From a bacterium (lineage in GTDB: Bacteria; Bacillota_I; Bacilli_A; RFN20; CAG-288), in contig CAVDUB010000003.1 of NCBI GenBank assembly GCA_963612025.1, forward strand, positions 37,235 through 101,234: a DNA stretch of 64,000 nucleotides. Reading direction: 5' to 3'. The translations under genes and the position numbers were made by a program. Position 1 is the stretch's first letter, and each line of letters opens with the position of its first letter. The notes under the pieces are model-generated. The model was not told where the DNA came from, did no database searches, and worked only from the letters and a program-made list of their open reading frames with translations. Positions 326 through 50,653 of the stretch are shown here, piece by piece.

Positions 326-973
326 ATGTCAGAAAAGAATAAGCCATCCACATGGAAACTTGTCGCTTCATTGGGATGCATCGCCGTATTTGGGGGTTTG
401 GCCATCGGAACGACCTATTCCCTCTTCACGTCGTCCAAGAACATCAATACACATCTGACGATTGCAGGAAGTGATTCTATTAAAGCAACTCTCTACCTCA
501 AGGAACTCAAGCAGGATGTCCTCAATGATGATGGTCTGATAGAGGAGCAGAGCATGCTTGATACTATCAAAAAGGAAGATGGAAGCGTGATAGTTCCTGA
601 TGAAAATACAGGACTTGTCGATCTCACGGATTATAAAGGAAATATTTTTGAGACAGTCAAGCTTGTTCCGACCATGAAGGGATCGGCGACATTCGTCCTT
701 ATGAATACTGGAGAAGTTGCATTCAACTATAGTGTCAGCGTCATGAAGTCTTTCTTCAAGAAGGATGGAACGACAGTGGATGAGGAACTTGAAAAGCAGA
801 TTGTGTTCACGGCTCCAGATGGGACGCAGGAAGAAGCACTCAAGAAGGGTGGAAAGAAGGAAATCAACATCAGCTACGAATTCAAGGATGATAAGAAGAA
901 CAACGCTGTTCAGGAATCCACATTTGCAGCCAATCTTACCTTCAATCTGAGCAGTGTCAGCAGAGCAGAATGA
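326..973 (+). CDS. SipW-cognate secreted protein, TasA/camelysin (peptidase M73-like) family
   Basis: The N-terminus has K-rich, hydrophobic and 'GGLAIGTTYSLFTSS' segments, matching the SipW-cognate signal-peptide motif (GTxYAxFT/S). It is about 215 aa, typical for camelysin/TasA. RBS is AAAGGAAAG. Confidence 0.6.
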   Translation: MSEKNKPSTWKLVASLGCIAVFGGLAIGTTYSLFTSSKNINTHLTIAGSDSIKATLYLKELKQDVLNDDGLIEEQSMLDTIKKEDGSVIVPDENTGLVDLTDYKGNIFETVKLVPTMKGSATFVLMNTGEVAFNYSVSVMKSFFKKDGTTVDEELEKQIVFTAPDGTQEEALKKGGKKEINISYEFKDDKKNNAVQESTFAANLTFNLSSVSRAE

Positions 974-1023
974 GATAAGACGTCAAGAAAAATATAAAAA
1001 CCGAAAGGAAAAAAAGGAAAACT

Positions 1024-2415
1024 ATGAAAAAAATGTCCAAAATGGGAAAGTCGATTCTATTGTCTTCTCTTGCCATCGTTGCCTTTGGAGGCATTGCGGC
1101 AGGCACGACCTATGCTTTGTTCACGAGCAATGCGGAGACGACGGTCTCTGTTTCGACAGGCAAGGTTAAAGTCGATACGAAAGTTTCTGATATTCATCTT
1201 TATTCTTTGGATGAATCTACGGATACGACGAAAGAACTTGCTGAGGGTGCAACGACCTTCACCAATGGTGGAACCTTCGCCTATGATGAAAACACTGGGG
1301 CTATTGAACTGGATCGACTTACTCCAGGCGATAAAGTCGAATTCACAATTACAGCAACGAATAGTTCAACTGTCAACATCAAGTATCGTACTGTCTTGAA
1401 GACACTCGATAAAGGATTGTTCCAGGGATTGAAAGTTATTGTCAATGACACTGAATATGATGGAACAACCGCTTTTTCGAACTATGCGGCTCTTTCTGCT
1501 GAGACTGATTTCACGGATAAGGAATATAAATTCTCTGTCGAACTTCCAAAAGATGCCGGTGACGAATATCAGGAAAAGAGTTGCGAGCTCAACTTCAATG
1601 TCGAAGCGGTTCAGGGCAATGCCGCAGTGAAAGATACAGATCCGACTCTCTATGAAATCTATACTTCATCCGATTTAGCTGCTTTTGCAAAGAAAGCGAA
1701 TGCGAACACACTTACATGCACAAAGGCTATTTTGATGGATGATATCGATATGAGTGGCATCAAGTATGATTCACCGCACTTCAGTGTTGAGAGCATTGAA
1801 TTCGATGGAAATGGTAAGACAATAAAGAATTTTGCTCCTTCTGTCCATTTTGATGGAAGCAATCCATATTTAGGCTTAATTGGTCAACCGGCTAATAATA
1901 CAAAAATATACAACGTTAACTTCGAAGCGGCAAAGGTGGAAGGAACAACAGCATTTGACACGGAAGATCCTGCCCTCAATGCAGGTGTTGTCGTTGGTTA
2001 TCTTGATAATGGTCAAGTCTCATTGGAAATCAGCAATGTTTCTGTTAAGAACTCCAGTGTTTCGAAAGTAAAATATTCAGGAGGTATTATTGGATATACA
2101 TCTTGCAATGACGTGAAACTTGAAAATATAACTGTAGAGAATAGCTCTTTTGAAGGATATACTGTCGGTGGCCTCATTGGTCAGGTTGGTGGTGGAAACA
2201 CTGTCATTAACAACGTCGTTGGAACTGCAGTCCATTCCAAGGGCTATAAACGAGAGGGTGGTATGGTTGGAGCAGTCACTGGTGCTTCTCTTGATATCAC
2301 TTATGATCCAACAAAATATTCTTCCAGCATCTCTGGTTCTGCAATTTCGGCCAAAGGCGCTGTTGTCGGCCTTCCAGGGACCAGCACCAAAGTCAATGGA
2401 GTTTTGTTGTCATAA
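1024..2415 (+). CDS. SipW-cognate TasA-like N-domain fused to a GLUG-repeat (beta-helix-like) C-terminal domain
   Basis: Signal region 'FGGIAAGTTYALFTSNAETT'. Roughly the first 200 aa are TasA-like. The C-terminal half carries repeated G-x-G-G-(I/L/V)-(I/V)-G units ('AGVVVGYL', 'SGGIIGYT', 'VGGLIGQV', 'EGGMVGAV'), which are typical of GLUG motifs. Confidence 0.6.
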   Translation: MKKMSKMGKSILLSSLAIVAFGGIAAGTTYALFTSNAETTVSVSTGKVKVDTKVSDIHLYSLDESTDTTKELAEGATTFTNGGTFAYDENTGAIELDRLTPGDKVEFTITATNSSTVNIKYRTVLKTLDKGLFQGLKVIVNDTEYDGTTAFSNYAALSAETDFTDKEYKFSVELPKDAGDEYQEKSCELNFNVEAVQGNAAVKDTDPTLYEIYTSSDLAAFAKKANANTLTCTKAILMDDIDMSGIKYDSPHFSVESIEFDGNGKTIKNFAPSVHFDGSNPYLGLIGQPANNTKIYNVNFEAAKVEGTTAFDTEDPALNAGVVVGYLDNGQVSLEISNVSVKNSSVSKVKYSGGIIGYTSCNDVKLENITVENSSFEGYTVGGLIGQVGGGNTVINNVVGTAVHSKGYKREGGMVGAVTGASLDITYDPTKYSSSISGSAISAKGAVVGLPGTSTKVNGVLLS

Positions 2416-2518
2416 ATCTAAAACCAGAGGTTCGATATCTTAAAAATCATATCCTTTATTTTAAGAAAAAATGTTTTTGAGTTTTGCAAATCAAATTCCA
2501 CAGATAAAATACATTATT

Positions 2519-2546
2519 GAAAGAAGAGCGGATTCGCTCTTCTTTC
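2519..2546 (+). terminator. Perfect 12-bp inverted repeat (GAAAGAAGAGCG-gatt-CGCTCTTCTTTC) between the TasA-GLUG gene and sipW
   Basis: The hairpin was read directly. The downstream tract is only partly U-rich (TTTCAATATATT), so it may be an attenuator rather than a full terminator. Confidence 0.4.
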
Positions 2547-2611
2547 AATATATTCGATTCACATTCATTTGTTTAATCTGAGATGTCCGTTGTTTATTTC
2601 ATTCATCGCTT

Positions 2612-3340
2612 ATGGAAGAGAAAAAAGAATCGGTTTGTTTATCGAATAAGAAGATCCTGAAAAGGATAGGAAATATTGTTTTCTACGTCTTTTTGTTTCT
2701 TTTCTTTTTTCTTGCTTGCTTTTCCTTGATCACAAGGATCACAAAGGGAAGAATTTTCAATAGTCAGTTTTTGGTCGTCATATCTGGATCTATGGATGGA
2801 GAAAAGCAAGAAGAATATGACATTAAGACAATTCCGATAAAGTCTCTAGTGAAGGTCTCCCTCATAGAGGAAGGAAAAGAAGCGGAATTCTACTCCTCTC
2901 TGAAAAAGGGAGATGTCTTGACGTTCAATTATCTTGCATTGAACAATGCGACAATCACCCATAGAATCATATCTGACCCGGTTGTCCTCGATGATGGAAC
3001 CTTCAAATATGAGCTTAAAGGTGATGCTGTCGATGGAAATGAGATGCAGACTCTCTATAGCGATGGAAGAAACGGCGAAATCTTAGGAAAGGTGACATTC
3101 GTCTCCCTTCCATTGGGACAAATGTACTTTTTTATTTCCTCGAAAGTGGGAACACTCTGCCTCGTTGTTCTTCCATCCACGGCAATTGTCTTATTCGAAA
3201 TCTGCAAAATCATCTTCATGGTTAGCGAGAATTCCAAGAAAAAGAGCGAAGAAAAAAGCAGGAAAGAAAAAGAGGAGAAGGATAAGGAAATTGAGGAACT
3301 GAAAAGACAACTTGAGGAATCGAAAAAGGAATGCAAGTAG
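2612..3340 (+). CDS. sipW: Signal peptidase I of the SipW (archaeal/ER Sec11-like, S26B) type, with a K/E-rich C-terminal tail
   Basis: An N-terminal TM anchor is followed by 'VVISGSMDGE' (catalytic-Ser box like SipW 'VLSGSMEP'). 'GDVLTF' and 'ITHRIIS' match the SipW 'IVTHRVVE' His box. It lies immediately downstream of the two cognate substrates. The C-terminal ~50 aa are charged and coiled-coil-like. Confidence 0.7.
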   Translation: MEEKKESVCLSNKKILKRIGNIVFYVFLFLFFFLACFSLITRITKGRIFNSQFLVVISGSMDGEKQEEYDIKTIPIKSLVKVSLIEEGKEAEFYSSLKKGDVLTFNYLALNNATITHRIISDPVVLDDGTFKYELKGDAVDGNEMQTLYSDGRNGEILGKVTFVSLPLGQMYFFISSKVGTLCLVVLPSTAIVLFEICKIIFMVSENSKKKSEEKSRKEKEEKDKEIEELKRQLEESKKECK

Positions 3341-7210: not shown

Positions 7211-7238
7211 TTGTATTGGCACCCGATTGACATTATAA
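7211..7238 (+). promoter_or_regulatory. Sigma-A-like promoter for the jetABC-like operon (-35 TTGTAT, 17-nt spacer, -10 TATAAT)
   Basis: Read directly from the sequence. An AAGGTGGG RBS follows about 15 nt downstream. Confidence 0.35.
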
Positions 7239-7256
7239 TTTTACAAGGTAGAAAAG

Positions 7257-8765
7257 GTGGGTCATGTTTTGAACAGATTATTTGATAAAGTGCCGGAGGA
7301 TCTCTTCTCTCCGCTATCTAGAAAATACAAGTCGATTTACGCATTCTGTCTCGTTTCTCTCTATCATATGCTTCGTCTCTACAAGACGGACATCAAGAAG
7401 AGCGATTATGTTTCATTCCTCAGAAGCCAAGGAGAAGAAATTCTCTCGCTTTTCAGTGTGGAAACCGATCGCTTGGATGACAAAGATGAAGAAGAAATGG
7501 TCGATATGGAGAATGTTTTGAATTCCGAAGACAGTTCCTCTGTCTTGTTTGCCAAGGTCAATTACATTGTCCGAAAATTGTCTAAATGTGGATGGTATAT
7601 CATCTCCAAGGATACCAAGACAAAGGTGGAATACCTGTTCATACCAGCTTATTCCATCCAGTTTTTGAAACTTCTCAATGACTTGACCAGCGATGCCGGA
7701 AGTTATCTTCCCTTGGTTCATCAGACCTATGCGGAACTCAAGATGGAAGATGAGAAGGAAGACGACTACATGTATCGTTCCCTTCTCAATGCCAAGAGCA
7801 ATGCCGATGAATTGGAAATGAACGTCACCTTGCTTCGCCAACAGATCTGCGTCTTTGGAAACCGGTTGACGAATGTTCTCGATCCCAATGATGCTTTAAG
7901 ACAGCATTTTGACGAATACCGTGTGGACGTCTCGGAGAAATATTATCATCCGATGAAAACGTTCGATTCCTTAGGCCTTTATGCCCAGCCGACCATTTCC
8001 ATTCTCAAGAAATGGCTCAACAGTGAAAGAATCATCACCCTTCTTGTCAAGGAAGCCAAGACAGACAGTGCCAATGCCGGAAAAGAGATTTCGGAAGTGA
8101 CCACGATGGTCATCAAGCTCATTTCCTCCATCATCGATGTTTTCTCCCGCCTCACGAGCGCGTTCAACGAAATCGATCAGGCCAATGCCAACTACACTGA
8201 GGCCGTCCAGAAGAAGGTCAACTATCTTTCGAGCACCGACAAGACCATCAAGGGAAAAATCGATCGCATCATCTTGGCTTTGGCCAATGAGATCAAGTCC
8301 AATCCTTCCCTTCGCTATGAAGAGATGCCGATATTGGAAAAGGCCACGAACTGCCTTTCCTTCACCCGTCAGGGCTATCTCGATTCCTTCTCGATGACGA
8401 TGCCTTTCAAAAGAAAGGGAACCAATCTTGATGAGGAACCGCTTGGCATGGATGATGATATATTCCCTGATGAAGTGGGCGACTATATGACCAACATCCT
8501 CGATGATGAACTCAATCGCTTCTCGGATTCCGCCATCGTGGAATTCATCGACCGAAATATGGAAGGGAGAGAGGAAATGCTCACCACGGATATCAAAGTC
8601 GATAATACGGATGAATTGGTTTTGACAATCTTGGGAACCTTGAAGGCCATGATGGGACTTCTTCCCTACAAAGCGGAAAAGGTTTCTGACCGTGTCGAAT
8701 TTTCGGGCTATTACATGCCGTTATACAAATTCACGAAAGTGAAGACGAAAAGAGGGGGTAGATAA
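7257..8765 (+). CDS. jetA: JetA/MksF-like kleisin-type subunit (DUF3375-like), first gene of a Wadjet/MksBEF-like operon
   Basis: A 500-aa largely helical protein sitting first in a 500 / 217 / 1170 aa, translationally coupled operon that matches jetA-jetB-jetC in order and size. The assignment rests on architecture and was not verified by motif. The start may be GTG 7257 or TTG 7269. Confidence 0.5.
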   Translation: MGHVLNRLFDKVPEDLFSPLSRKYKSIYAFCLVSLYHMLRLYKTDIKKSDYVSFLRSQGEEILSLFSVETDRLDDKDEEEMVDMENVLNSEDSSSVLFAKVNYIVRKLSKCGWYIISKDTKTKVEYLFIPAYSIQFLKLLNDLTSDAGSYLPLVHQTYAELKMEDEKEDDYMYRSLLNAKSNADELEMNVTLLRQQICVFGNRLTNVLDPNDALRQHFDEYRVDVSEKYYHPMKTFDSLGLYAQPTISILKKWLNSERIITLLVKEAKTDSANAGKEISEVTTMVIKLISSIIDVFSRLTSAFNEIDQANANYTEAVQKKVNYLSSTDKTIKGKIDRIILALANEIKSNPSLRYEEMPILEKATNCLSFTRQGYLDSFSMTMPFKRKGTNLDEEPLGMDDDIFPDEVGDYMTNILDDELNRFSDSAIVEFIDRNMEGREEMLTTDIKVDNTDELVLTILGTLKAMMGLLPYKAEKVSDRVEFSGYYMPLYKFTKVKTKRGGR

Positions 8766-8767
8766 AA

Positions 8768-9421
8768 ATGTTTCAGGAAGAATATGAGAAAATGAGCCGA
8801 GGAGACCGCAATCTCTTTTCGGAAACAGTCAACGATCTGCTCTACCAGTGCTTCATTGTCCGCAAGAGCTATGATCGAAAAAGCAAGATGTTCCGTGCGG
8901 ATCCGGGATATCTTTTCATCGAGAGATATTATTCCGTCTTTGAAGAATATCTTTCCTATATGGATATGACCTTATCCAAGAATGACGAAGATGGCATCAT
9001 CTTTGTCACATCCGCTGTGGAACGAAATCATTACCGCATGGATCCGACGACAACCCTGGTCGTTTTTGCTCTTCGCAGCTTCTATGAAGGCCAGGTCGAA
9101 AAGACTCCGGAGCAGACAGAAGTCATGATGACCTCTGCCCAGATGATGGCACTTGTCCAGGAACTTGGACTTTCCAACCTTTCCAAGCGTCTTTCCTTTT
9201 CGACGATTGCGTCGATTCTTCGCACCTTGGATGGCTTCAATGTCGTCAATCGAATCACCAACAACTACGGCGATCCGACCTATTCCTTCTATATCCTGCC
9301 GACAATCCGCTATGTTCTCTCCAGCGAAAAACTCAATTCTCTCTACACCTATCTGACTGCACCGGAAGAGACAAATAGCGAACCTTCTCTTTTTGATCTG
9401 AACGAAGGAGGAAATGACTGA
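8768..9421 (+). CDS. jetB: JetB/MksE-like small subunit (DUF4194-like)
   Basis: A 217-aa acidic protein starting 2 nt after the jetA stop; its stop overlaps the jetC start (ATGA). Position and size match JetB. Confidence 0.5.
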   Translation: MFQEEYEKMSRGDRNLFSETVNDLLYQCFIVRKSYDRKSKMFRADPGYLFIERYYSVFEEYLSYMDMTLSKNDEDGIIFVTSAVERNHYRMDPTTTLVVFALRSFYEGQVEKTPEQTEVMMTSAQMMALVQELGLSNLSKRLSFSTIASILRTLDGFNVVNRITNNYGDPTYSFYILPTIRYVLSSEKLNSLYTYLTAPEETNSEPSLFDLNEGGND

Positions 9422-12400
9422 TGAAAACATTACAGAGACTTCGTCTCATCAACTGGCACTACTTCACGAATACCACCACGGATATCAAGAATATCACGTT
9501 TTTGACCGGTCCGAATGGAACTGGAAAATCGACAATCATCGATGCACTTCAGATTCTGATTCTCGGTACGACGAGATCGGACAACTTCAATAAGGCTGCC
9601 AATGAAAAAGGCCGAAGTGGAAGAAATATCCTTTCCTACCTCCGCGGACAGACGGGTGTGAGGGATGACGGCTCCATCATCACGCTTCGAAGCGGTACTT
9701 TCACATCCTATATCGCTATCGAAATCTATGATGATGTCGAAAAAAGAACATTCACATTGGGCTGCTGCTTTGATGTGGATGCTTCCTCGGATAAACCAGA
9801 CAAGCACTACTTCTATCTCGATTCCCCATTCCCAGAGAATGGTTTCTCCAACAGCGATACCGCCAAGGACAAAGACAAAGTGCGTCCAATGATGTATAAG
9901 GAACTTTCCGCCTTTGCCAGAGAAAACTACAAAGTAAATCATTTCCGATTCTTCGAGACGGATGCGGATTACCAGGCCTTCATCAAAGAGGCTTTTGGAA
10001 ACTTGCCGGATAAATATTTTTCACTTTTCAAGAAGGCTGTTTCCTTCGCCCCGATTTCCAACATTTCTTCCTTCATCACGGAATATATCTGTGATGCGGA
10101 TTTGAATGTCGATATTTCGCCGATGGAAAAGACCATCACCCAATATCAGCTTCTGGAAGCTCAAGCCAAGAATCTTAAGACCAAAGTGGAATGCCTGACG
10201 AAGATCTCCGAGACCTTCAAGGAACTTCGCTCCTTTGATCGAAAAATTGACATGCTCAACTATGTCAACGCCCGTGTTTCCTATGAGGAATCGAAAAAGA
10301 AAATCGATACGCTCAATGAAAGACTTAAGAAGGACAATGAAAGACTTTCCTTCATCTCTGATGAAATCGGACACTTGGATAGCCAATTGGAAGATTTGAA
10401 TTCCGATCTGAACTCCTATAATGCCAAGAAGCTCCAGAGCGACAACTATTCCCTTACGGAAAAACTGTCTATGAAGAAGGAAGGCATCCTCCGGGAGATT
10501 TCCTCCATCCAGATGCAGGTGAACAATGTCGTTTCGACCATCAGTCAGTACTGCAAGGCCTATGGAGAAGTCTGCAATGAATTTGCTCGCTACTATCAGG
10601 ATTTCGATGCCAATCGCCTTTCCGATAAAATCAAGGAACCTTTTGACGAACTCGTCGAACTGTGTCGTGATGTCTCTTCGGAATGCACGAATCTTCTTTC
10701 GGGAATCAATGAGAACGAACTTGATTTCGAAAGCGTGAAGCTCTTCCGCAATGACATGGAACAGGTCAAGAACCAGTCGATCGCACTGAAGAGTCTTCTC
10801 AATGCGGAATTCTACAACACATCGAGAAAGTTGCAGTCTCTCCAGTCGGATTTGGCTGCGGTCAGCCAGGGAAAGAAACCGTTTGATAAACTCGGTCCTG
10901 TTTACTTGACTATTAAGGATAACCTGGAAAAATCCCTCAAGGCCAGACATTCGGATGCCTATGTGAATATCTATTGCGACCTTGTCGATGTCAATGATAT
11001 GGAATGGACGATGGCTCTTGAAGCTGTTCTTTATTCCCAGAAATTCAATTTCTTTGTCAATCCGAACTACTATGAAGAGGCAAACCGTCTCTTGAAGGAA
11101 TTGGCTGAGACGTATCACTATTATCATGTCTCCCTGGTCGATACGGAAAGACTTCTCCAGAATGATATCCATGCCAACCCGGATTCGATTGCTAAACTGA
11201 TTGATACTTCGGACAAGGGTGCAAGAGCCTATACGGACTATCTCTTGGGAAAAATCAAGAAGTGTACGACCTTCGATGAGGCGAGACGGTCTGGATCCGG
11301 TCTTCTTTCCGATTGCACCGGATATCGATCCTACGCCACATGGTATCTCAACAAGTCCAATGCCCGTGTCTTCTTCTTGGGAAGACAGGTTTCCAGCAAT
11401 GCAAAGGCGGTTTCCAGCGCGGACTATCAGAGCGTGAATCAGCAGTATTCGCTTCTTTCGGAAGCGCTGAATAAGCTTGAGAACCTTCTCAATCTCAAAC
11501 TCATGTCGGATAATGAATGTCTTGCCTATGAGGAAGATATCAAGAGAAGCAAGGAAATCACTTCCCGCCAGGATCAGATCAATGAGATTGACATGGAAAT
11601 GAAGAAGATCGCCCATGGTGATTTGACCATGGTCGATGAAAAAATCTATGAAATCCAGAACACCATCCGCGAACTCAATGACAAGAGAAATAGTCTTCTG
11701 ACCGAGCGTGGACAGATTCTTGCCGATACAAAGAGAATCAACATGGAAGACCTTCCTTCGGCAAATAGCGTCATGAAAGACAATACGACTGCCCTGTCCA
11801 AGTTCGATGAAAAGGTCATCAACGAGGAATATGAGCCGTTCTTCAACAAATTGCTCGATGAACAGGGCCTTACCTTGGCCCAGATTCGTGTCGAAGCCTA
11901 TCGTGAAAGCATCCAGGCTCAGAACAAGACGAATCGTGACCGCGGTGCCTTGATGAAACTGAGAAGCGACTATTGCGCACAATATCATCTCAACTATGAT
12001 GTTCAGAACGAGAAATCCAACGAGGAATTCGATAAGGAACTCGAAAATATCTCTAAGGTCATGCTTCCGGATTATGAGAAGAAGATTGCCAAGGCCCATG
12101 AAGATTCCATCCGTGAATTCAAGGATGACTTCATCTACAAGCTGAGAACAGCGATCGAGACCGTCTATTCCCAGATCGATGAACTCAATAAGGCGCTCGA
12201 GGATTCCCATTTCGGAAGAGATTCCTATCAGTTCAAGGTTTCCCCCAACAAGGACTACATCCAGTATTACAACATGATCATGGATCCGCTCCTTCTGAAG
12301 GCGGGCGATGCAGAAAGTCTCTTCATGGAAAAATACAAGACGACCATGAATGACCTTTTCGGTCTCATCTCCTCTTCGACGAGTGCCACAGGCGAACAAC

Positions 12401-12933
12401 AGGAACAGATTCTGAGAAACATCAAGACGTTTACAACCTATACCACCTATATCATCTTTGACCTTCTTGTCACCAGAGGACAGGAACAGGGTGCACCGAC
12501 AATCTCCTTGGGACGTTCCTTCACCTCCCAGTCGGGCGGTGAAACCCAGACGCCGTTCTATGTTTCCATCTTGGCATCTTTTGCCCAGATGTGCCGTGTG
12601 AATAATGCTGCGGATAGCAATACTCTCCGTCTTGTCTTGTTCGATGAGGCGTTCTCGAAGATGGATGCCACACGTATCATGAAGTCGACACAGCTCTTGA
12701 GACAATTCGGTCTTCAGTGCATCATGTCGACGCCGAGTGAGAAGCTCCGTGATCTTGTCTCCTGCGTGGATATCATCCTTGTCACCATCCACGAAGATAA
12801 AAGAAAACGCTCCTATATCGACATCTATCAGGAAAAGAAAAAGAGAGAAGGACAGGTTGAAGAACCAGTTCAGAAAGAGGAAGAAGGAACCCAGATGCGG
12901 ATTCCGGACGCTTCAGCAAAATCGATTCAGTGA
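9421..12933 (+). CDS. jetC: JetC/MksB-like SMC-family ATPase
   Basis: N-terminal 'LINWHYFTNTTTDIKNITFLTGPNGTGKSTIIDALQILILG' (Walker A, MukB/JetC-like). The 800-aa middle is predicted coiled coil. C-terminal 'SGGETQ', then 'LVLFDEAFSKMD' (Walker B / D-loop) and 'CIMSTPSEK'. Length is 1170 aa. Confidence 0.8.
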   Translation: MKTLQRLRLINWHYFTNTTTDIKNITFLTGPNGTGKSTIIDALQILILGTTRSDNFNKAANEKGRSGRNILSYLRGQTGVRDDGSIITLRSGTFTSYIAIEIYDDVEKRTFTLGCCFDVDASSDKPDKHYFYLDSPFPENGFSNSDTAKDKDKVRPMMYKELSAFARENYKVNHFRFFETDADYQAFIKEAFGNLPDKYFSLFKKAVSFAPISNISSFITEYICDADLNVDISPMEKTITQYQLLEAQAKNLKTKVECLTKISETFKELRSFDRKIDMLNYVNARVSYEESKKKIDTLNERLKKDNERLSFISDEIGHLDSQLEDLNSDLNSYNAKKLQSDNYSLTEKLSMKKEGILREISSIQMQVNNVVSTISQYCKAYGEVCNEFARYYQDFDANRLSDKIKEPFDELVELCRDVSSECTNLLSGINENELDFESVKLFRNDMEQVKNQSIALKSLLNAEFYNTSRKLQSLQSDLAAVSQGKKPFDKLGPVYLTIKDNLEKSLKARHSDAYVNIYCDLVDVNDMEWTMALEAVLYSQKFNFFVNPNYYEEANRLLKELAETYHYYHVSLVDTERLLQNDIHANPDSIAKLIDTSDKGARAYTDYLLGKIKKCTTFDEARRSGSGLLSDCTGYRSYATWYLNKSNARVFFLGRQVSSNAKAVSSADYQSVNQQYSLLSEALNKLENLLNLKLMSDNECLAYEEDIKRSKEITSRQDQINEIDMEMKKIAHGDLTMVDEKIYEIQNTIRELNDKRNSLLTERGQILADTKRINMEDLPSANSVMKDNTTALSKFDEKVINEEYEPFFNKLLDEQGLTLAQIRVEAYRESIQAQNKTNRDRGALMKLRSDYCAQYHLNYDVQNEKSNEEFDKELENISKVMLPDYEKKIAKAHEDSIREFKDDFIYKLRTAIETVYSQIDELNKALEDSHFGRDSYQFKVSPNKDYIQYYNMIMDPLLLKAGDAESLFMEKYKTTMNDLFGLISSSTSATGEQQEQILRNIKTFTTYTTYIIFDLLVTRGQEQGAPTISLGRSFTSQSGGETQTPFYVSILASFAQMCRVNNAADSNTLRLVLFDEAFSKMDATRIMKSTQLLRQFGLQCIMSTPSEKLRDLVSCVDIILVTIHEDKRKRSYIDIYQEKKKREGQVEEPVQKEEEGTQMRIPDASAKSIQ

Positions 12934-12950
12934 CGAAGTGGGCCATTCAA

Positions 12951-12992
12951 GCCTTCAGGTAAAAATGCCTGAAGGCCTGATGCCCTTTTTTG
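12951..12992 (+). terminator. Strong intrinsic terminator directly after jetC
   Basis: Perfect 9-bp stem GCCTTCAGG-taaaaatg-CCTGAAGGC, then ctgatgccc and TTTTTT. Confidence 0.55.
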
Positions 12993-13081
12993 GTGTCCGA
13001 AAACGAAATGAAATGGGATTTTCGTCTTTTTCCGTTATTTTTCCTTCTTCATAGCCCATATCTCTATGAGGAGACATAAAA

Positions 13082-13900
13082 ATGGACTCCAATCCGAAAG
13101 AGACTTCCCGAGAGGATGAACTCTTCCTTACGGAGGAAGAGACAAGAGAAGAGATGAGGAAGACCTGCCTGATGTCGGATATCGTCATGAACTATGCATT
13201 CAGCGGAAACACAGAACTGACGCAGTTCATCCTGAGGATTCTTCTTGAAAGAAATGACATCCATGTCGTGAACGTCAGAACGCAGGAAAGAATATCCCTC
13301 ATCGATTCCGATTCCCATTTCGTCGTCCTGGATATCCATGCCTCAGACCTTCCCCAGAGAGGGATGATTTATGGTGGGCATCTGCTCAGCCGTTATTTCC
13401 GGAAGGGAAGAAAGGATTACCGGAAGATGCCCAAGGTCTATGTCATCTTCCTCATCGACGACTGCAGATTTCCGGAAAGCAAGCTCTGCGAGAGATACTC
13501 CATGACCAGGGAAGACACGCATGAGGAAATGGACCGATCTCCCGAAGTCTATCTCTTCAACATGAAATACAAGGGAGAGAAGAAGAAATTCGTCACCCTT
13601 TTTTCGGACCTCGTGGAGAGCGAGGATAGGAAGATCAAGTATGGAGAAGTTAAGAAGACTATGGTACAATATCACCAAATAAACGGAGGAATGAACGATA
13701 TGATCAACCATCCGCTCGAGAATGCGACGAGACGAGGCATGGAATACGGGATGAAGAAGGGAATGGAAATGGGTGAGATGAAAGCCAATGAGCAATGCTG
13801 TCTGTCCCTATTAAGGGACGGTCTCTATCCAGAAGAGAAGATTGCCGAGCTTCTTCATATGCCTCTATCGAGAGTCCAGGAACTGAAAAAGACGATATAA
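13082..13900 (+). CDS. Rpn-family recombination-promoting nuclease/putative transposase (PD-(D/E)xK, transposase_31-like)
   Basis: N-terminal 'DIVMNYAF..ELTQFILRILL' and 'RISLIDSDSHFVVLDIHA' align to the Rpn D...IEMQ core with an E to D change. 'YGGHLLSRYFRKGRKDYRKMPKVYVIFLID' matches the conserved Rpn middle. The C-terminus has GMEYGMKKGMEMG repeats and an 'IAELLHMPLSRVQELKK' ending typical of this family. Confidence 0.55.
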   Translation: MDSNPKETSREDELFLTEEETREEMRKTCLMSDIVMNYAFSGNTELTQFILRILLERNDIHVVNVRTQERISLIDSDSHFVVLDIHASDLPQRGMIYGGHLLSRYFRKGRKDYRKMPKVYVIFLIDDCRFPESKLCERYSMTREDTHEEMDRSPEVYLFNMKYKGEKKKFVTLFSDLVESEDRKIKYGEVKKTMVQYHQINGGMNDMINHPLENATRRGMEYGMKKGMEMGEMKANEQCCLSLLRDGLYPEEKIAELLHMPLSRVQELKKTI

Positions 13901-14118
13901 GCATAGAGAATATCATTCTTTAGACTTTATTCGAGATACTGAATGATGGATTTAGAGTATCCGAATGAGGCTTTTCGATTTGAAATCGCAATACAATTCT
14001 CAACAAAAGTATAACAATCATAAAAAAATGTAAAAAAAATCGAAAAGGGCTAGCATACTTATAATAGTATATATATAATATATAAGTTAGTAAGCGGTTA
14101 CATAAGGAGGTACTCTCT

Positions 14119-46892: not shown

Positions 46893-48107
46893 ATGCCACT
46901 TGAATTAAAGAATATTTACAAGGTTTATCCAAATGGATACCAAGCCATTACGAATTTCAACCTCAAAATCGAAGACAAGGAGTTCATCGTTCTTGTCGGC
47001 CCGAGCGGTTGCGGTAAATCCACAACGCTTAGAATGATCGCTGGTCTTGAGGACATCACACATGGCGACTTCGTCATTGATGGAAAGAAAGTCAACAATC
47101 TTCCACCGAAGGATCGTGGTATCGCCATGGTTTTCCAAAGCTATGCCCTTTATCCGACGTTGACTGTCTATGAGAACATGGCATTCGCATTGGATTTAGC
47201 TGGCTTTGATGAAGATGTCATCCGCAAGAGAGTTGAAAGCACAGCCAAGATTTTGGGCCTCGAACCCTACTTGGAAAGACTTCCGAGAGCTCTCTCAGGC
47301 GGTCAGAGACAAAGAGTTGCCTTGGGAAGAGCCATTATCCGCAATGCAAAAATCTTCCTTATGGATGAGCCTTTGAGTAACCTCGATGCCAGACAGAGAG
47401 TCTCCATGCGTTCTGAATTGGCAAGAATCCATCGTGATGCCGGTGCAACCACCATCTACGTCACACACGATCAGATTGAAGCAATGACTATGGCTTCGAG
47501 AATCGTCTGTATGGATGTCGGTGTCATCAAGCAGGTCGGCACTCCTGAAGAACTCTATTTCCACCCGAAGAATCTCTTCGTCGCCGGATTCATTGGTGAC
47601 CCGCCGATGAACTTCATCAAGGGAAAAGTCAAAGATGGTACCTTCAAGTCTCTTGATGGCTATTATGACTTCGATCTTTCTTCCTATTCTGCGAAAGCCC
47701 GTGCTCTCCTTGAAGGAAAGAATATCACCCTTGGCTATCGTCCGGAAAACGCAGTTATGGAAGACGAAGTTGTCGATGCAAATGATTATCTTAAGATGAA
47801 TGGTATCATCGAAGTCTATGAAATGCTCGGTGACTTGCAGAACGTCTATCTCAATGTCGGTTCTGAAAAAGCCATCATCAAGGCCAAGCCGGAAGTTGAA
47901 ATCAACATCGGCTCTGAAATGATCTATTACATTAAGAAAACCGATTTCCGTTTCTTTGATTCGGATACAGAAGATGCTATCGAATTTGATGATGAACCAA
48001 TCGAATCCGTTTCTGAAAAAGCTGAAGAAGTGAAGGAAACGGCTCCGGAAGCCTCTCTTGAACAACCGGAAGAAGCACCTGTACAAGGAACGCTTGAATC
48101 GAAATGA
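46893..48107 (+). CDS. msmX: Sugar ABC transporter ATP-binding protein (MsmX/MalK-like)
   Basis: 'GPSGCGKST', 'LSGGQRQRVALGRAI', 'IFLMDEPLSNLD', and a C-terminal TOBE-like domain. Confidence 0.85.
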   Translation: MPLELKNIYKVYPNGYQAITNFNLKIEDKEFIVLVGPSGCGKSTTLRMIAGLEDITHGDFVIDGKKVNNLPPKDRGIAMVFQSYALYPTLTVYENMAFALDLAGFDEDVIRKRVESTAKILGLEPYLERLPRALSGGQRQRVALGRAIIRNAKIFLMDEPLSNLDARQRVSMRSELARIHRDAGATTIYVTHDQIEAMTMASRIVCMDVGVIKQVGTPEELYFHPKNLFVAGFIGDPPMNFIKGKVKDGTFKSLDGYYDFDLSSYSAKARALLEGKNITLGYRPENAVMEDEVVDANDYLKMNGIIEVYEMLGDLQNVYLNVGSEKAIIKAKPEVEINIGSEMIYYIKKTDFRFFDSDTEDAIEFDDEPIESVSEKAEEVKETAPEASLEQPEEAPVQGTLESK

Positions 48108-49546
48108 GCAAAACCACGTTTACCATCAGTAAGAAAGAATTGAAGCGAAGAGATTTTATTCTTCATGGTAATTTGTGGAAGGTTGTCTTTGTTATCGCAT
48201 TACCATTATTCTTCTATTCTTTGTTCAACTATGCCTATTCCATCATCGATACGATTATGTGTTCAGGCATTTCGAAAAGTGCTTTGAATGCGGTTGGGGC
48301 GTTAAACCAAGTCAACAATATGATATCTGCCATCGGCGCTGGTTTGGGCGCCGGTGGTTCTATTCTGATTGCCCGAGAAATCGGGAAAGGCGATTATAAA
48401 AAGGCAAAAAAACTTTCTTCGACTGTCTTCTTCTACGTCTTCATCATCGCAGCGTTGACGATTGCGATTGTCTTGCCTTTGACTGCGCCGATTCTGCGAT
48501 TGATGAATATCGCAGAGGAATCCATTGCTATCGGGTCGACCTATTTCATGATATCGGTCTGCTCGAGTGCGGTCGTCATGATCAACACAGTCTACATGGG
48601 TGTCGAAAAAGCCCATGGGTCGACTTTGCCAATCACCCTGCTGAATGTCGGAGTTGTTGTTGTGAAGGTTCTTCTGAACGTCTTATTCATCTATGCACTT
48701 CAGCTGAAGGAAATGATGTATGTTTCCTTGGCGACATTGATTGCCAATGGATGTCTGACTCTGTTTATTCTCACTCGCCTTTTTTTCACCAACTATATCT
48801 TCCGTTTCGATTTCAAGGAAATCTCCCTCAATTTCAAGATGCTCAAGAAGGTTTCCATCATCTCGTTTCCAATCTTTCTTGGAAAATTCATCTTCTCTTT
48901 AGGGAAGGTGGTCATCAATGGCCTAGCCAATGAATTTGGTTCGGATGTCGTCGGTGCCTTAGGCGTTTCCAATAATATGGGCGGATCGGTCACCAATCCT
49001 CTTTCATCTATTGAGGATTCGTCTTCGAGCATCATCTCTCAGAATGTTGGTGCCAATCAGGTGGATCGAGCCATCAAGACATTTTTCGTCGGTTTGGTCT
49101 ATTCTCTCTCGATTGCTGTCATCGGCGTGGCGATTGTGACGATTTTCGATAAGCCGATTACGATGTTTTTTGCAAGAAGTGCAGACGATGTCGAAACGTA
49201 TGCTAATCATATTTCGCAGGTGTTCTTTTATGAAAAGATGGGTATCATCACTTTAGCCATCAACTCCTCGGTCTTGGGCCTTCTTTATGGCTTGGGAAAG
49301 ACGAAAGTCGCTTCAGTGATGAATATTGCAAGAGTCTTTGCTTTCCGCATCCCTTCCTTTGCCATCTGCAATGCCTTAGTGAAAGCGGGTGTTCAGTTCC
49401 CAGGCGTCGGAAATGAAAACCCGGGATTCATGGTTGCAGGCATCTCTATGGGTGTCAGCAACATCAGCATTGGCCTTGTTGCCATTGTCGTGGCGATTGT
49501 TGAGATTCGTTCGATTATGAAAAAGAAAAAAATCCAGGAGGAAAGT
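48104..49546 (+). CDS. MATE-family membrane transporter portion of an in-frame MATE-GH105 ORF
   Basis: Twelve predicted TM segments in a NorM-like protein. No stop codon precedes the GH105 ATG at 49547. Confidence 0.65.
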
Positions 49547-50653
49547 ATGACACTCAATGAAGATGAATTGAAGAAGGTCGATGAATTTATCCGTTCTTTC
49601 TTGACAGAATACAAGCCTTACAAGAATGGAACATGGTGCTATGAGGACGGCGTTGTTCTCAATGGCGCTTGGCAGATGTATAAGGCCAAAAAGGATTCGT
49701 TCTATCTTGATTTCTGTGTGAAATATTTTGATACACACATTCAGGAAGATGGTGCTTTGAAGGGTTTCGATGTGAAGAACTGCAATTTGGATGACTTGGA
49801 GGCAGGTTATGCTCTTTATCATGTCAACAAGGTTCATCATGAAGAAAAATACGATAAGGCCATTGCTCTTCTCCAGTCTCAGTTTGCTGTGCAGAAGAGA
49901 TTAGAGAATGGGGCTTTCATCCACAAGGAACGTTATCCTGCCCAATTATGGCTTGATGGCCTCTATATGGCAAACCCATTCTATGCTCTTTATGCTGCAG
50001 ATGAACATTCTATCAAGATGATGGATGATTTGAAGAATCAGTTCGAAAACGTCGAAAAATACAATGTCAATCCAACGGACGGATTCTATTATCATTGCTA
50101 TGATGAAAACAAGGTCATGCAGTGGGCTGACAAGGAAACGGGAAGAAGCCCGAATGTTTGGCTCAGAAGCGTTGGCTGGCTTGCCATGGCGGATTGTGAT
50201 GTCTATCAGATTGTCTCTGATTCTGTCATTGGAAAGATTCATGCTCCTTTCTATAAGAAGCAACTGAAGAATGTTCTGTCTTCTTTGAAAGATTATGAGG
50301 ATGAGACGACAAATATGTACTATGATCTTCCTGTCCTGAAGGATTTGAAGGGGAATTATCTTGAATCTTCGGGCTCTCTCATGTTCGCCTATGGCTATTT
50401 GAAAGGATCTCGCCTGGGTATGCTTCCTTATGAGGAAAGAGAGCACGGATGCAAGATCTTCGAAGGCGTTGTTCGCAATTGCCTCAAGGACAATCATCTT
50501 GAGAACATCTGCAAAGTTTCCGGATTGGATAACGAAAGAAGAAACGGAACGGTGGAATATTATCTCTCTGAACCGATTGTCGCTGATGACAGCAAGGGTG
50601 TAGGCCCTTTCATGATGGCTTACAGCGAATATCTTGCTCTGCCGAAATTATAG
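49547..50653 (+). CDS. Unsaturated rhamnogalacturonyl hydrolase (GH105, YteR/YesR-like)
   Basis: (alpha/alpha)6 GH105/GH88-like sequence 'EDGVVLNGAWQMY...WLDGLYMANPF'. AGGAGG at 49535-49540 lies 6 nt before ATG 49547. Confidence 0.7.
   Translation: MTLNEDELKKVDEFIRSFLTEYKPYKNGTWCYEDGVVLNGAWQMYKAKKDSFYLDFCVKYFDTHIQEDGALKGFDVKNCNLDDLEAGYALYHVNKVHHEEKYDKAIALLQSQFAVQKRLENGAFIHKERYPAQLWLDGLYMANPFYALYAADEHSIKMMDDLKNQFENVEKYNVNPTDGFYYHCYDENKVMQWADKETGRSPNVWLRSVGWLAMADCDVYQIVSDSVIGKIHAPFYKKQLKNVLSSLKDYEDETTNMYYDLPVLKDLKGNYLESSGSLMFAYGYLKGSRLGMLPYEEREHGCKIFEGVVRNCLKDNHLENICKVSGLDNERRNGTVEYYLSEPIVADDSKGVGPFMMAYSEYLALPKL

What the first reader, a model, noticed from the sequence alone, without database searches (positions are those of the whole stretch)
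7257..12933. Wadjet/MksFEB-like jetABC operon with no JetD (Toprim) gene
Three translationally coupled genes (502, 217 and 1170 aa) reproduce the jetA-jetB-jetC architecture. The third gene is a MukB/JetC-type SMC ATPase (Walker A 'GPNGTGKST', Walker B/D-loop 'LVLFDEAFSKMD', about 800 aa of coiled coil). The fourth Wadjet gene, jetD (DUF2220/Toprim nuclease), is absent on both flanks, and the operon is closed by a strong intrinsic terminator at 12951-12992. The island sits between an acylation operon and glgCDA, a position typical of accessory defence loci.

Two readings are possible: (i) a nuclease-less MksBEF-type condensin, which would be unusual beside SMC-ScpAB in a Firmicute; (ii) a Wadjet-derived plasmid-restriction system whose cleavage module is supplied in trans or by a different nuclease family. 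The second reading would be a new variant.
Basis: partly seen in the sequence, partly recalled or inferred. Interest (0 to 1): 0.75.

Follow-up and report, generated by a model that had tools for sequence, protein, structure and literature searches.

The report
Nuclease-free Wadjet (JetABC) SMC operon
This is a real three-gene JetA-JetB-JetC operon that lost its DNA-cutting partner JetD long ago and has since been kept as a stable core chromosomal locus in a group of uncultured gut Bacilli, so it is most likely a MksBEF-like DNA-folding machine, not a new plasmid-cutting defence system.

Summary
jetA (7269/7257-8765), jetB (8768-9421) and jetC (9421-12933) are type I Wadjet genes by Pfam, PADLOC and fold search. 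They are translationally coupled and end at a strong terminator. No JetD is found in the 64 kb window.

The "defence island" reading is not supported:
- About 15 related loci (JetC identity 35-99%) also lack JetD.
- These loci keep the same neighbourhood: acyl-CoA ligase and acyltransferase or glgB upstream, glgCDA downstream.
- dN/dS is 0.01-0.03, the same as the flanking housekeeping genes.
- The ATPase motifs are intact.
- A two-residue deletion removes the JetC phenylalanine that corresponds to E. coli F919, the JetD docking residue. It occurs in every member of this clade and in no JetD-containing relative.

The downstream 272-aa PD-(D/E)XK gene is not a substitute nuclease. It lies on a 970-bp insertion that the nearest relative lacks, and its catalytic core is deleted.

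The best reading is a domesticated, nuclease-free JetABC, analogous to MksBEF. [quoted passage not shown] This is therefore a new member of a known kind. It is one of at least three independent losses among the loci sampled.

I could not test whether the same genome encodes Smc-ScpAB, or JetD at another site.

The parts
7211..7239 (+). Promoter-like site: TTGTAT, 17 nt, TATAAT, upstream of jetA
   Evidence: Read directly from the sequence. It is a consensus match only. It lies in the 182-bp divergent intergenic region.
7257..8765 (+). jetA, the kleisin subunit (MukF/MksF-like). The likely true start is TTG 7269 (498 aa) with SD AAGGTGG at 7254-7260.
   Evidence: Pfam PF18982 JetA, 1.4e-59. PADLOC JetA1, 2.8e-85. 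A 498-aa identical protein is on record. The AF2 model (pLDDT 77) has Wadjet-II JetABC chain E and MukF as its top PDB folds, prob 1.00.
8768..9421 (+). jetB, the KITE subunit (MukE/MksE-like, DUF4194)
   Evidence: PF13835, 1.3e-15. PADLOC JetB1, 8.3e-64. The top 21 Foldseek PDB hits of a low-confidence model are all JetB or MukE chains.
9421..12933 (+). jetC, the SMC-type ATPase (MukB/MksB-like). Walker A is at 9508-9534, the signature motif at 12532-12549 and Walker B/D-loop at 12631-12666.
   Evidence: PADLOC JetC1, 2.8e-288 over residues 1-1145. AAA_29 and SbcC_Walker_B also match. The best solved relatives are JetC chains 9qxt, 8as8 and 8dk2. The motifs are invariant across 23 homologues.
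12301..12324 (+). JetC 'larynx' segment AGDA|ESLF. A 2-residue deletion here removes the residue equivalent to E. coli JetC F919, which docks JetD.
   Evidence: An HMM alignment to 8as8/9qxt and two MAFFT alignments place F919 in an L-F column. That column is F or M in all 9 JetD+ loci and is deleted in all 9 gut-Bacilli JetC. The deletion is also present in L030, L031, L033 and L034.
12950..12991 (+). Intrinsic terminator closing the three-gene operon
   Evidence: RNA fold of -32.8 kcal/mol, z = -6.0, hairpin followed by a T-run. Equivalent hairpins follow jetC in L001, L003, L004 and L005.
13010..13978 (+). NOT part of the system. A 970-bp insertion carrying a degenerate PD-(D/E)XK (PDDEXK_2, Rpn-like) gene at 13082-13900.
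   Evidence: The insertion is absent from L001, which is 90% nt-identical on both flanks. The match to PF12784 is weak, E = 1e-3. A 17-aa in-frame deletion removes 'IHAxDxxGTHYDIEMQR' relative to homologues P0002-P0004. Conspecific assemblies break at this point.

Best explanation
The operon encodes a complete, functional JetA (kleisin), JetB (KITE) and JetC (SMC ATPase) complex. It descends from a type I Wadjet system that lost its Toprim nuclease JetD in an ancestor of a clade of uncultured gut Bacilli; relatives are labelled Candidatus Enterosoma, 'Bacilli bacterium' and Clostridium sp. CAG:568.

Shown here:
- The three genes are intact and co-transcribed in one terminator-closed unit.
- They are inherited vertically at a fixed chromosomal site, inside or next to the glycogen gene cluster.
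- They evolve under purifying selection as strong as that on neighbouring housekeeping genes.
- JetC has lost the surface residue that docks JetD.

Inferred:
- The complex still dimerises through JetA, binds DNA and hydrolyses ATP, and extrudes DNA loops like other JetABC, MksBEF and MukBEF complexes.
- It cannot cleave DNA.
- Its selected role is therefore most likely chromosome folding or segregation, as described for P. aeruginosa MksBEF and mycobacterial MksB.
- A less likely role is nuclease-independent handling of small circular DNA.
For: Identity of the three proteins.

No JetD: none in the 64 kb window and none within +/-10 kb in L001-L009, L019 and L026-L034. More distant type I relatives (L010, L012, L016-18, L021, L023-25) have jetD immediately downstream of jetC.

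Phylogeny: the JetD-less gut clade is monophyletic (100% bootstrap). It groups with the JetD+ loci L016 and L010 (100%). It never joins the two other JetD-less clades (0%).

Synteny: AMP-ligase and HGSNAT acyltransferase or glgB upstream and glgCDA downstream are kept down to 35% JetC identity.

Selection: dN/dS between the window and L001 is 0.032 for jetA, 0.011 for jetB and 0.011 for jetC, with dS 0.35-0.55. The flanking genes give 0.012 (glgC) and 0.039 (ligase). L005 against L006 gives 0.02-0.03.

ATPase motifs are invariant.

The F919-equivalent residue is deleted only in this clade. F919E inactivates E. coli JET in vivo (bioRxiv 10.1101/2023.11.03.565488).

Terminators follow jetC in five species.

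Against: - No functional data exist for this lineage.
- The rest of the genome could not be searched, so a distant jetD copy is not formally excluded. It is also unknown whether Smc-ScpAB is present.
- The F919 mapping rests on alignment to a JetC with about 25% identity in the head region. It is gapless from a conserved anchor and reproduced by three alignment methods, but it is still remote.
- The two other JetD-less clades keep the phenylalanine, so loss of that residue is not a necessary consequence of losing JetD.
- A chromosome-organising activity has not been documented for any type I JetABC as such (PMC10586767).
Confidence: 0.72

Rival explanations
1. It is a working Wadjet plasmid-restriction system whose JetD nuclease is encoded elsewhere in the genome and joins JetABC in trans.
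For: Only 64 kb of the genome, plus +/-10 kb in the relatives, could be inspected. JetABC is otherwise a typical type I complex.
Against: - In every JetD+ relative sampled, jetD directly follows jetC.
- About 15 independent loci of this clade have none nearby.
- The residue equivalent to E. coli JetC F919, which inserts into the JetD aCAP pocket and is required for restriction, is deleted throughout the clade.
- The locus behaves as a core locus, not as a mobile one.
Confidence: 0.07
2. It is a Wadjet derivative that uses a different nuclease family as effector. Candidates are the adjacent PD-(D/E)XK gene at 13082-13900 or another unlinked nuclease.
For: A gene with a weak PDDEXK_2 match lies 150 bp downstream of jetC. 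One distant JetD-less locus (L014) has a Uma2 endonuclease gene after jetC. L007 has a DEAD/ResIII helicase 22 bp after jetC.
Against: - The PDDEXK_2 gene sits behind the operon terminator.
- It lies on a 970-bp insertion that the 90%-identical relative L001 and all other loci lack.
- It carries a 17-aa deletion that removes the D...E-x-Q catalytic core present in its homologues.
- No gene is conserved downstream of jetC across the clade. The small downstream ORFs are unrelated membrane proteins or lipoproteins.
Confidence: 0.04
3. It is a decaying remnant of a defence system with no current function.
For: Defence systems are often lost piecemeal, and the effector gene is gone.
Against: - All three ORFs are full-length in every species examined.
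- dN/dS is 0.01-0.03 at dS 0.35-1.3.
- The catalytic motifs are invariant.
- The gene order is retained over divergence down to 35% identity.
Confidence: 0.02
4. It is a nuclease-free JetABC that still acts against small circular DNA, or otherwise on extrachromosomal DNA, without cutting. For example, it might extrude plasmids fully and stall on them, hindering their replication or partition.
For: JetABC alone senses DNA shape and size and entraps plasmids. The complex is intact and under selection.
Against: In the tested systems, deleting jetD/mksG gives the same loss of restriction as deleting jetC/mksB (PMC10123090; PMC10586767). The fixed core-genome location and housekeeping-like constraint are atypical for defence genes.
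Confidence: 0.15

Closest known systems
Type I Wadjet / JetABCD (E. coli GF4-3 JET, P. aeruginosa PA14 JetABCD; PADLOC JetA1/B1/C1)
   Same: The JetA kleisin, JetB KITE and JetC SMC ATPase families are the same, in the same gene order with translational coupling. The best HMM and fold matches are to these proteins. The locus nests phylogenetically among JetD-containing type I loci.
   Different: There is no JetD Toprim nuclease. The JetD-docking Phe in the JetC larynx is deleted. The locus is core and syntenic, not an island. By the known mechanism it therefore cannot cleave plasmids.
MksBEF condensin-like complexes without MksG (P. aeruginosa MksBEF; mycobacterial MksB)
   Same: Both are three-subunit SMC/kleisin/KITE complexes without a nuclease. 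[quoted passage not shown]
   Different: This is an independent loss in Bacillota from a type I ancestor. No orthology to the Pseudomonas or Mycobacterium proteins was shown, and no functional data exist. Coexistence with Smc-ScpAB is unknown here.
MukBEF (Enterobacteria)
   Same: The architecture is the same. The JetA and JetB models hit the MukF and MukE folds. The MukB N-terminal Pfam match is weak, 3.9e-5.
   Different: Sequence is far closer to JetABC than to MukBEF. There is no evidence that it replaced Smc-ScpAB.

Membership tests
Wadjet type I (JetABCD) | JetA kleisin (PF18982/DUF5716) | tested here: met
   Pfam 1.4e-59 and PADLOC JetA1 2.8e-85. The fold hits Wadjet JetA and MukF.
Wadjet type I (JetABCD) | JetB KITE subunit (DUF4194/PF13835) | tested here: met
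   Pfam 1.3e-15 and PADLOC JetB1 8.3e-64. The top fold hits are JetB and MukE, from a low-pLDDT model.
Wadjet type I (JetABCD) | JetC SMC-type ATPase with intact Walker A, signature and Walker B motifs | tested here: met
   PADLOC JetC1 2.8e-288. The motifs were located and are invariant.
Wadjet type I (JetABCD) | JetD Toprim nuclease (PF09983 + DUF3322) encoded in the operon | tested here: not met
   The JetD HMM finds nothing in the window or in about 18 related loci. It scores 500-680 bits on JetD+ loci.
Wadjet type I (JetABCD) | JetD-docking hydrophobic residue in the JetC larynx (E. coli F919) | tested here: not met
   A 2-aa deletion removes the aligned L-F in all members of the clade. 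It is F or M in 9 of 9 JetD+ loci. The alignment is remote.
Wadjet type I (JetABCD) | Restriction or cleavage of small circular DNA | not testable with these tools
   This needs transformation or plasmid-stability assays, or in vitro cleavage.
MksBEF-type nuclease-free SMC complex | Kleisin-KITE-SMC operon with no fourth nuclease gene, closed as a transcription unit | tested here: met
MksBEF-type nuclease-free SMC complex | Maintained by selection as a functional complex | tested here: met
   dN/dS is 0.01-0.03, equal to the flanking housekeeping genes. Full-length ORFs are kept down to 35% identity.
MksBEF-type nuclease-free SMC complex | Acts in chromosome organisation or segregation | not testable with these tools
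   This requires Hi-C, ChIP-seq or genetics.
MksBEF-type nuclease-free SMC complex | Coexists with, or replaces, Smc-ScpAB in the genome | not tested
MukBEF | MukB, MukF and MukE sequence families | tested here: not met
   The only match is a borderline MukB_N hit (23.9 bits against a 23-bit cutoff). There is no MukF or MukE Pfam hit, and the Jet families score far higher.
PD-(D/E)XK (PDDEXK_2/Rpn-like) nuclease as substitute effector | Intact D...(D/E)xK catalytic core, and conserved linkage to jetABC | tested here: not met
   A 17-aa deletion removes the core. The gene is absent from L001 and from all other loci.

The most novel reading that the evidence does not exclude
In this lineage of small-genome gut Bacilli (Candidatus Enterosoma and relatives), a type I Wadjet complex has been fully converted into a housekeeping chromosome-folding motor. 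It may have replaced Smc-ScpAB or become co-essential with it. That would be a further independent MukBEF-like takeover, and the deletion of the JetD-docking site would be its molecular scar.
Probability: 0.12. Interest if true: 0.8.

Novelty: new member of a known kind. Interest (0 to 1): 0.42.

Why it matters
SMC researchers have proposed that MukBEF and MksBEF are former defence systems (Wadjet) that lost their nuclease and became chromosome organisers. This locus is a clean natural example of that transition in Bacillota:
- The JetD+ relatives are still identifiable.
- The loss is old and clade-wide.
- The genes are under housekeeping-level constraint.
- JetC carries a specific deletion at the nuclease-docking site.

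At least three independent losses appear among 23 sampled loci. That suggests the conversion is recurrent.

There is also a practical point. Defence-system annotators that label such operons 'Wadjet' from JetA, JetB and JetC hits alone would overcall anti-plasmid immunity in common human and animal gut Bacilli.

Tried and rejected
1. Small ORFs (140-185 aa) directly after jetC in L003, L005, L006, L008, L013, L015, L019 and L020 were tested as a possible shared fourth subunit. They fall into unrelated families (membrane proteins, lipoprotein/thioredoxin-like) and are absent from the window.

2. The 272-aa PDDEXK_2 gene as a JetD replacement was rejected.

3. The N-terminus of JetB, reported to contact JetD aCAP, was compared between JetD+ and JetD- loci. 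No consistent difference was seen.

4. Sequence and profile searches of JetA and JetB against PDB chains found nothing. Fold search was needed instead.

5. Looking up the 502-aa JetA by exact sequence failed, because databases use the TTG start at 7269. Looking up P0001 also failed.

6. NCBIfam has no model hitting JetA or JetB.

8. GC content does not mark the operon as foreign: 0.453 against 0.405-0.44 in the flanks and 0.432 for the window.

9. I could not find a way to retrieve the other contigs of the source genome to look for smc, scpAB or jetD.
Full report
**1. Observation**

jetA is listed from GTG 7257. Public gene calls start it at the in-frame TTG 7269, giving 498 aa that are 100% identical (P0005). 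That start follows an AAGGTGG Shine-Dalgarno site and a TTGTAT-17-TATAAT promoter-like site.

jetA ends in TAA two bases before the jetB ATG. jetB and jetC overlap as TGATG. Both downstream starts have strong ribosome-binding sites.

Family assignments are unambiguous:
- JetA: Pfam PF18982, 1.4e-59; PADLOC JetA1, 2.8e-85.
- JetB: PF13835 (DUF4194), 1.3e-15; PADLOC JetB1, 8e-64.
- JetC: PADLOC JetC1, 2.8e-288 across residues 1-1145, with AAA_29 and SbcC_Walker_B head domains.

It did not match. The type I JetA family PF18982 matched instead.

The closest solved proteins to JetC are the E. coli and P. aeruginosa JetC chains. JetA and JetB have no sequence-level match in the PDB. Their models do match at the fold level:
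- The AlphaFold2 model of JetA (pLDDT 77) has Wadjet-II JetABC chain E and MukF as its top folds.
- The low-confidence JetB model (pLDDT 55) returns only JetB and MukE chains in its first 21 hits.

That criterion is not met.

The hairpin at 12950-12991 is a strong terminator: -32.8 kcal/mol, z = -6.

**2. JetD is absent, and not only here**

I built an HMM from nine JetD proteins found downstream of jetC in distant relatives. Four of these were confirmed as JetD_C/DUF3322 by Pfam. A six-frame search with this HMM found nothing in the 64 kb window and nothing in L001-L009 or L019. It scored 500-680 bits on each JetD+ locus.

Nine further loci were recovered through exact-protein look-ups of JetA and JetB homologues (L026-L034). 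They are also negative.

**3. The downstream nuclease-like gene is a red herring**

The 272-aa ORF at 13082-13900 matches PDDEXK_2 weakly, E = 1e-3. The window and L001 are about 90% identical in DNA on both sides, but window 13010-13978 has no counterpart in L001. In L001, jetC is followed after 225 bp by glgC.

No other locus encodes a homologue. Three conspecific assemblies break at exactly this point, as expected for a repeated mobile sequence.

Aligned to its three database homologues, the window copy lacks 17 residues, 'IHAxDxxGTHYDIEMQR'. From my knowledge of the fold, this segment is the D...E-x-Q/K catalytic core of the PD-(D/E)XK family. The gene also lies behind the operon terminator. 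It is therefore not a JetD substitute.

**4. The locus is core, not an island**

BLASTP of the window's flanking proteins against all loci shows conserved neighbours. The AMP-binding ligase and HGSNAT acyltransferase pair upstream, and/or glgCDA downstream, accompany jetABC in L001, L003, L004, L005, L006, L008 and L019. JetC identity in these loci ranges from 99% down to 35%.

In L030-L034 the order is ftsK, then intervening genes, then glgB, an acyltransferase (plus the AMP-ligase/HGSNAT pair in L031/L032) and jetABC. In L033/L034 glgC-glgD-glgA-rpmF follow directly. In L030 glgC follows after inserted genes. In L031/L032 no glg gene lies within the fetched downstream flank. In L030, L033 and L034, therefore, jetABC sits inside the glycogen gene cluster.

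Relatives are annotated 'Bacilli bacterium' and 'Candidatus Enterosoma sp.', and one JetB cluster was seen on 596 contigs. This is a common gut lineage. GC content does not set the operon apart.

**5. Selection**

Nei-Gojobori estimates between the window and L001 give these dN/dS values, at dS 0.35-0.55:

| Gene | dN/dS |
|---|---|
| jetA | 0.032 |
| jetB | 0.011 |
| jetC | 0.011 |
| glgC (flank) | 0.012 |
| AMP-ligase (flank) | 0.039 |
| HGSNAT acyltransferase (flank) | 0.039 |
| Four further flanking ORFs | 0.015-0.049 |

L005 against L006 gives 0.02-0.03 at dS of about 1.0-1.3.

The signature, Walker B/D-loop and downstream head motifs are invariant in an alignment of 23 JetC C-terminal regions, the only exception being the SGGGAQ signature variant in L011, L014 and L020. 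Walker A is intact wherever it was checked. The complex is clearly maintained.

**6. Phylogeny**

An NJ tree of 23 JetC proteins was built on 1,059 trimmed columns with Kimura distances and 500 bootstraps.
- The gut-Bacilli JetD-less loci form one clade (100%).
- That clade groups with the JetD+ loci L016 and L010 (100%).
- Two other JetD-less clades are each supported at 100%: L013/L015, Izemoplasmatales-like; and L011/L014/L020, Desulfotomaculia.
- These two never join the gut clade or each other (0%).

This implies at least three independent losses, or unlinkings, of jetD among the sampled type I systems.

**7. A molecular correlate**

In E. coli JET, the JetD aCAP domain docks on the JetC 'larynx' through F919. 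Mutating F919 to glutamate abolishes restriction (bioRxiv 10.1101/2023.11.03.565488).

A profile of the JetC C-terminal region aligns E. coli residues 818-1080. F919 falls in an 'L-F' column, with no gap between it and a conserved downstream anchor. Two independent MAFFT runs agree.

The state of that column is:
- F or M in all nine JetD+ loci.
- F in the five members of the other two JetD-less clades.
- Removed by a two-residue deletion (GDA--ESLF) in all nine gut-Bacilli JetC, and also in L030, L031, L033 and L034.

The alignment to E. coli is remote, so this is supporting evidence and not decisive. It does argue specifically against a JetD acting in trans.

**8. Interpretation**

In all tested Wadjet systems the known defence activity needs JetD/MksG (PMC10586767; PMC10123090).

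A JetABC complex that has no JetD, has lost the docking residue, has no conserved alternative nuclease, and is kept as a core gene cluster under strong constraint is best explained as a nuclease-free SMC complex of the MksBEF kind.

The literature already treats P. aeruginosa MksBEF as a probable JetABCD derivative that lost JetD and works on the chromosome. It describes MksBEF as 'scattered over the phylogenetic tree'. The category is therefore known. What is new is this particular lineage and the features documented here.

I put about 0.72 on a functional nuclease-free JetABC whose main role is on the chromosome. The rivals are:
- About 0.15 on a nuclease-independent role against extrachromosomal DNA.
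- About 0.07 on JetD in trans.
- About 0.04 on another nuclease.
- About 0.02 on decay.

**9. Limits**

The rest of the source genome could not be searched. Two questions therefore remain open: whether Smc-ScpAB coexists with this operon, and whether a jetD lies elsewhere in the genome. The JetB structural model is of low confidence. The trees are distance-based. All functional statements are inference.

Noticed in passing
window 13010-13978: A 970-bp insertion relative to the closest relative L001. It carries a PDDEXK_2 (Rpn-like 'transposase') gene with a 17-aa deletion of its catalytic core. Three conspecific assemblies (L026, L027, L029) end at this spot, which suggests a repeated mobile sequence. 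No terminal repeats were looked for.
   Followed up: partly
L033/L034 1-20645; L030 (glgB ... jetABC ... glgC); L031/L032 (upstream side only): In relatives from human-gut and other metagenomes, jetABC lies between glgB-acyltransferase and glgC-glgD-glgA, inside the glycogen gene cluster. ftsK lies a few genes upstream and rpmF/rlmN downstream. In L031/L032 only the glgB side is seen. Why an SMC-like operon is fixed there is unexplained.
   Followed up: partly
L011, L014, L020 (Desulfotomaculia) and L013, L015 (Izemoplasmatales-like): These are two further, independent JetD-less type I jetABC clades. The Desulfotomaculia group has a variant signature motif, SGGGAQ. In L014 a Uma2-family putative endonuclease gene (13397-14056) lies directly after jetC. 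In L013/L015 jetABC is followed, after one small ORF, by rsmE-like and MiaB-like housekeeping genes.
   Followed up: partly
L007 13508-14722: In Clostridium sp. CAG:568 a DEAD/ResIII-type helicase gene starts 22 bp after jetC, where JetD would be. It is not seen in other members of the clade. Whether it is functionally linked is unknown.
   Followed up: no
window 48104-50653: A single 849-aa ORF combines a MatE transporter domain (aa 34-194 and beyond) with a C-terminal GH88 unsaturated glucuronyl hydrolase domain (aa 507-844). This is either an unusual fusion or two genes merged by a sequencing or assembly error.
   Followed up: no
window 25543-50653: A dense block of glycoside hydrolase and sugar-utilisation genes: GH43, an AdhE-like aldehyde/alcohol dehydrogenase, an FGGY kinase, an alpha-L-rhamnosidase, a 1052-aa GH3 and a MalK-type ABC ATPase. 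This fits a polysaccharide-degrading gut organism.
   Followed up: no
window 326-3340: A SipW-type signal peptidase (2612-3340) lies next to ORFs with a weak SipW-dependent signal-peptide match (1024-2415), reminiscent of TasA/camelysin-type secreted fibre operons.
   Followed up: no
L002 (CAVCCX010000065.1): An 8.5-kb contig whose jetABC is 98% identical to the window is binned as 'Bacteroides uniformis'. This is almost certainly a mis-binned contig from the Bacilli lineage.
   Followed up: no
JetB alignment, window JetB aa ~37-45: Gut-clade JetB proteins and the JetD+ locus L016 share a 5-7-residue insertion (..RKSKMFRAD..) that the other type I JetB lack. Its significance is unknown.
   Followed up: no
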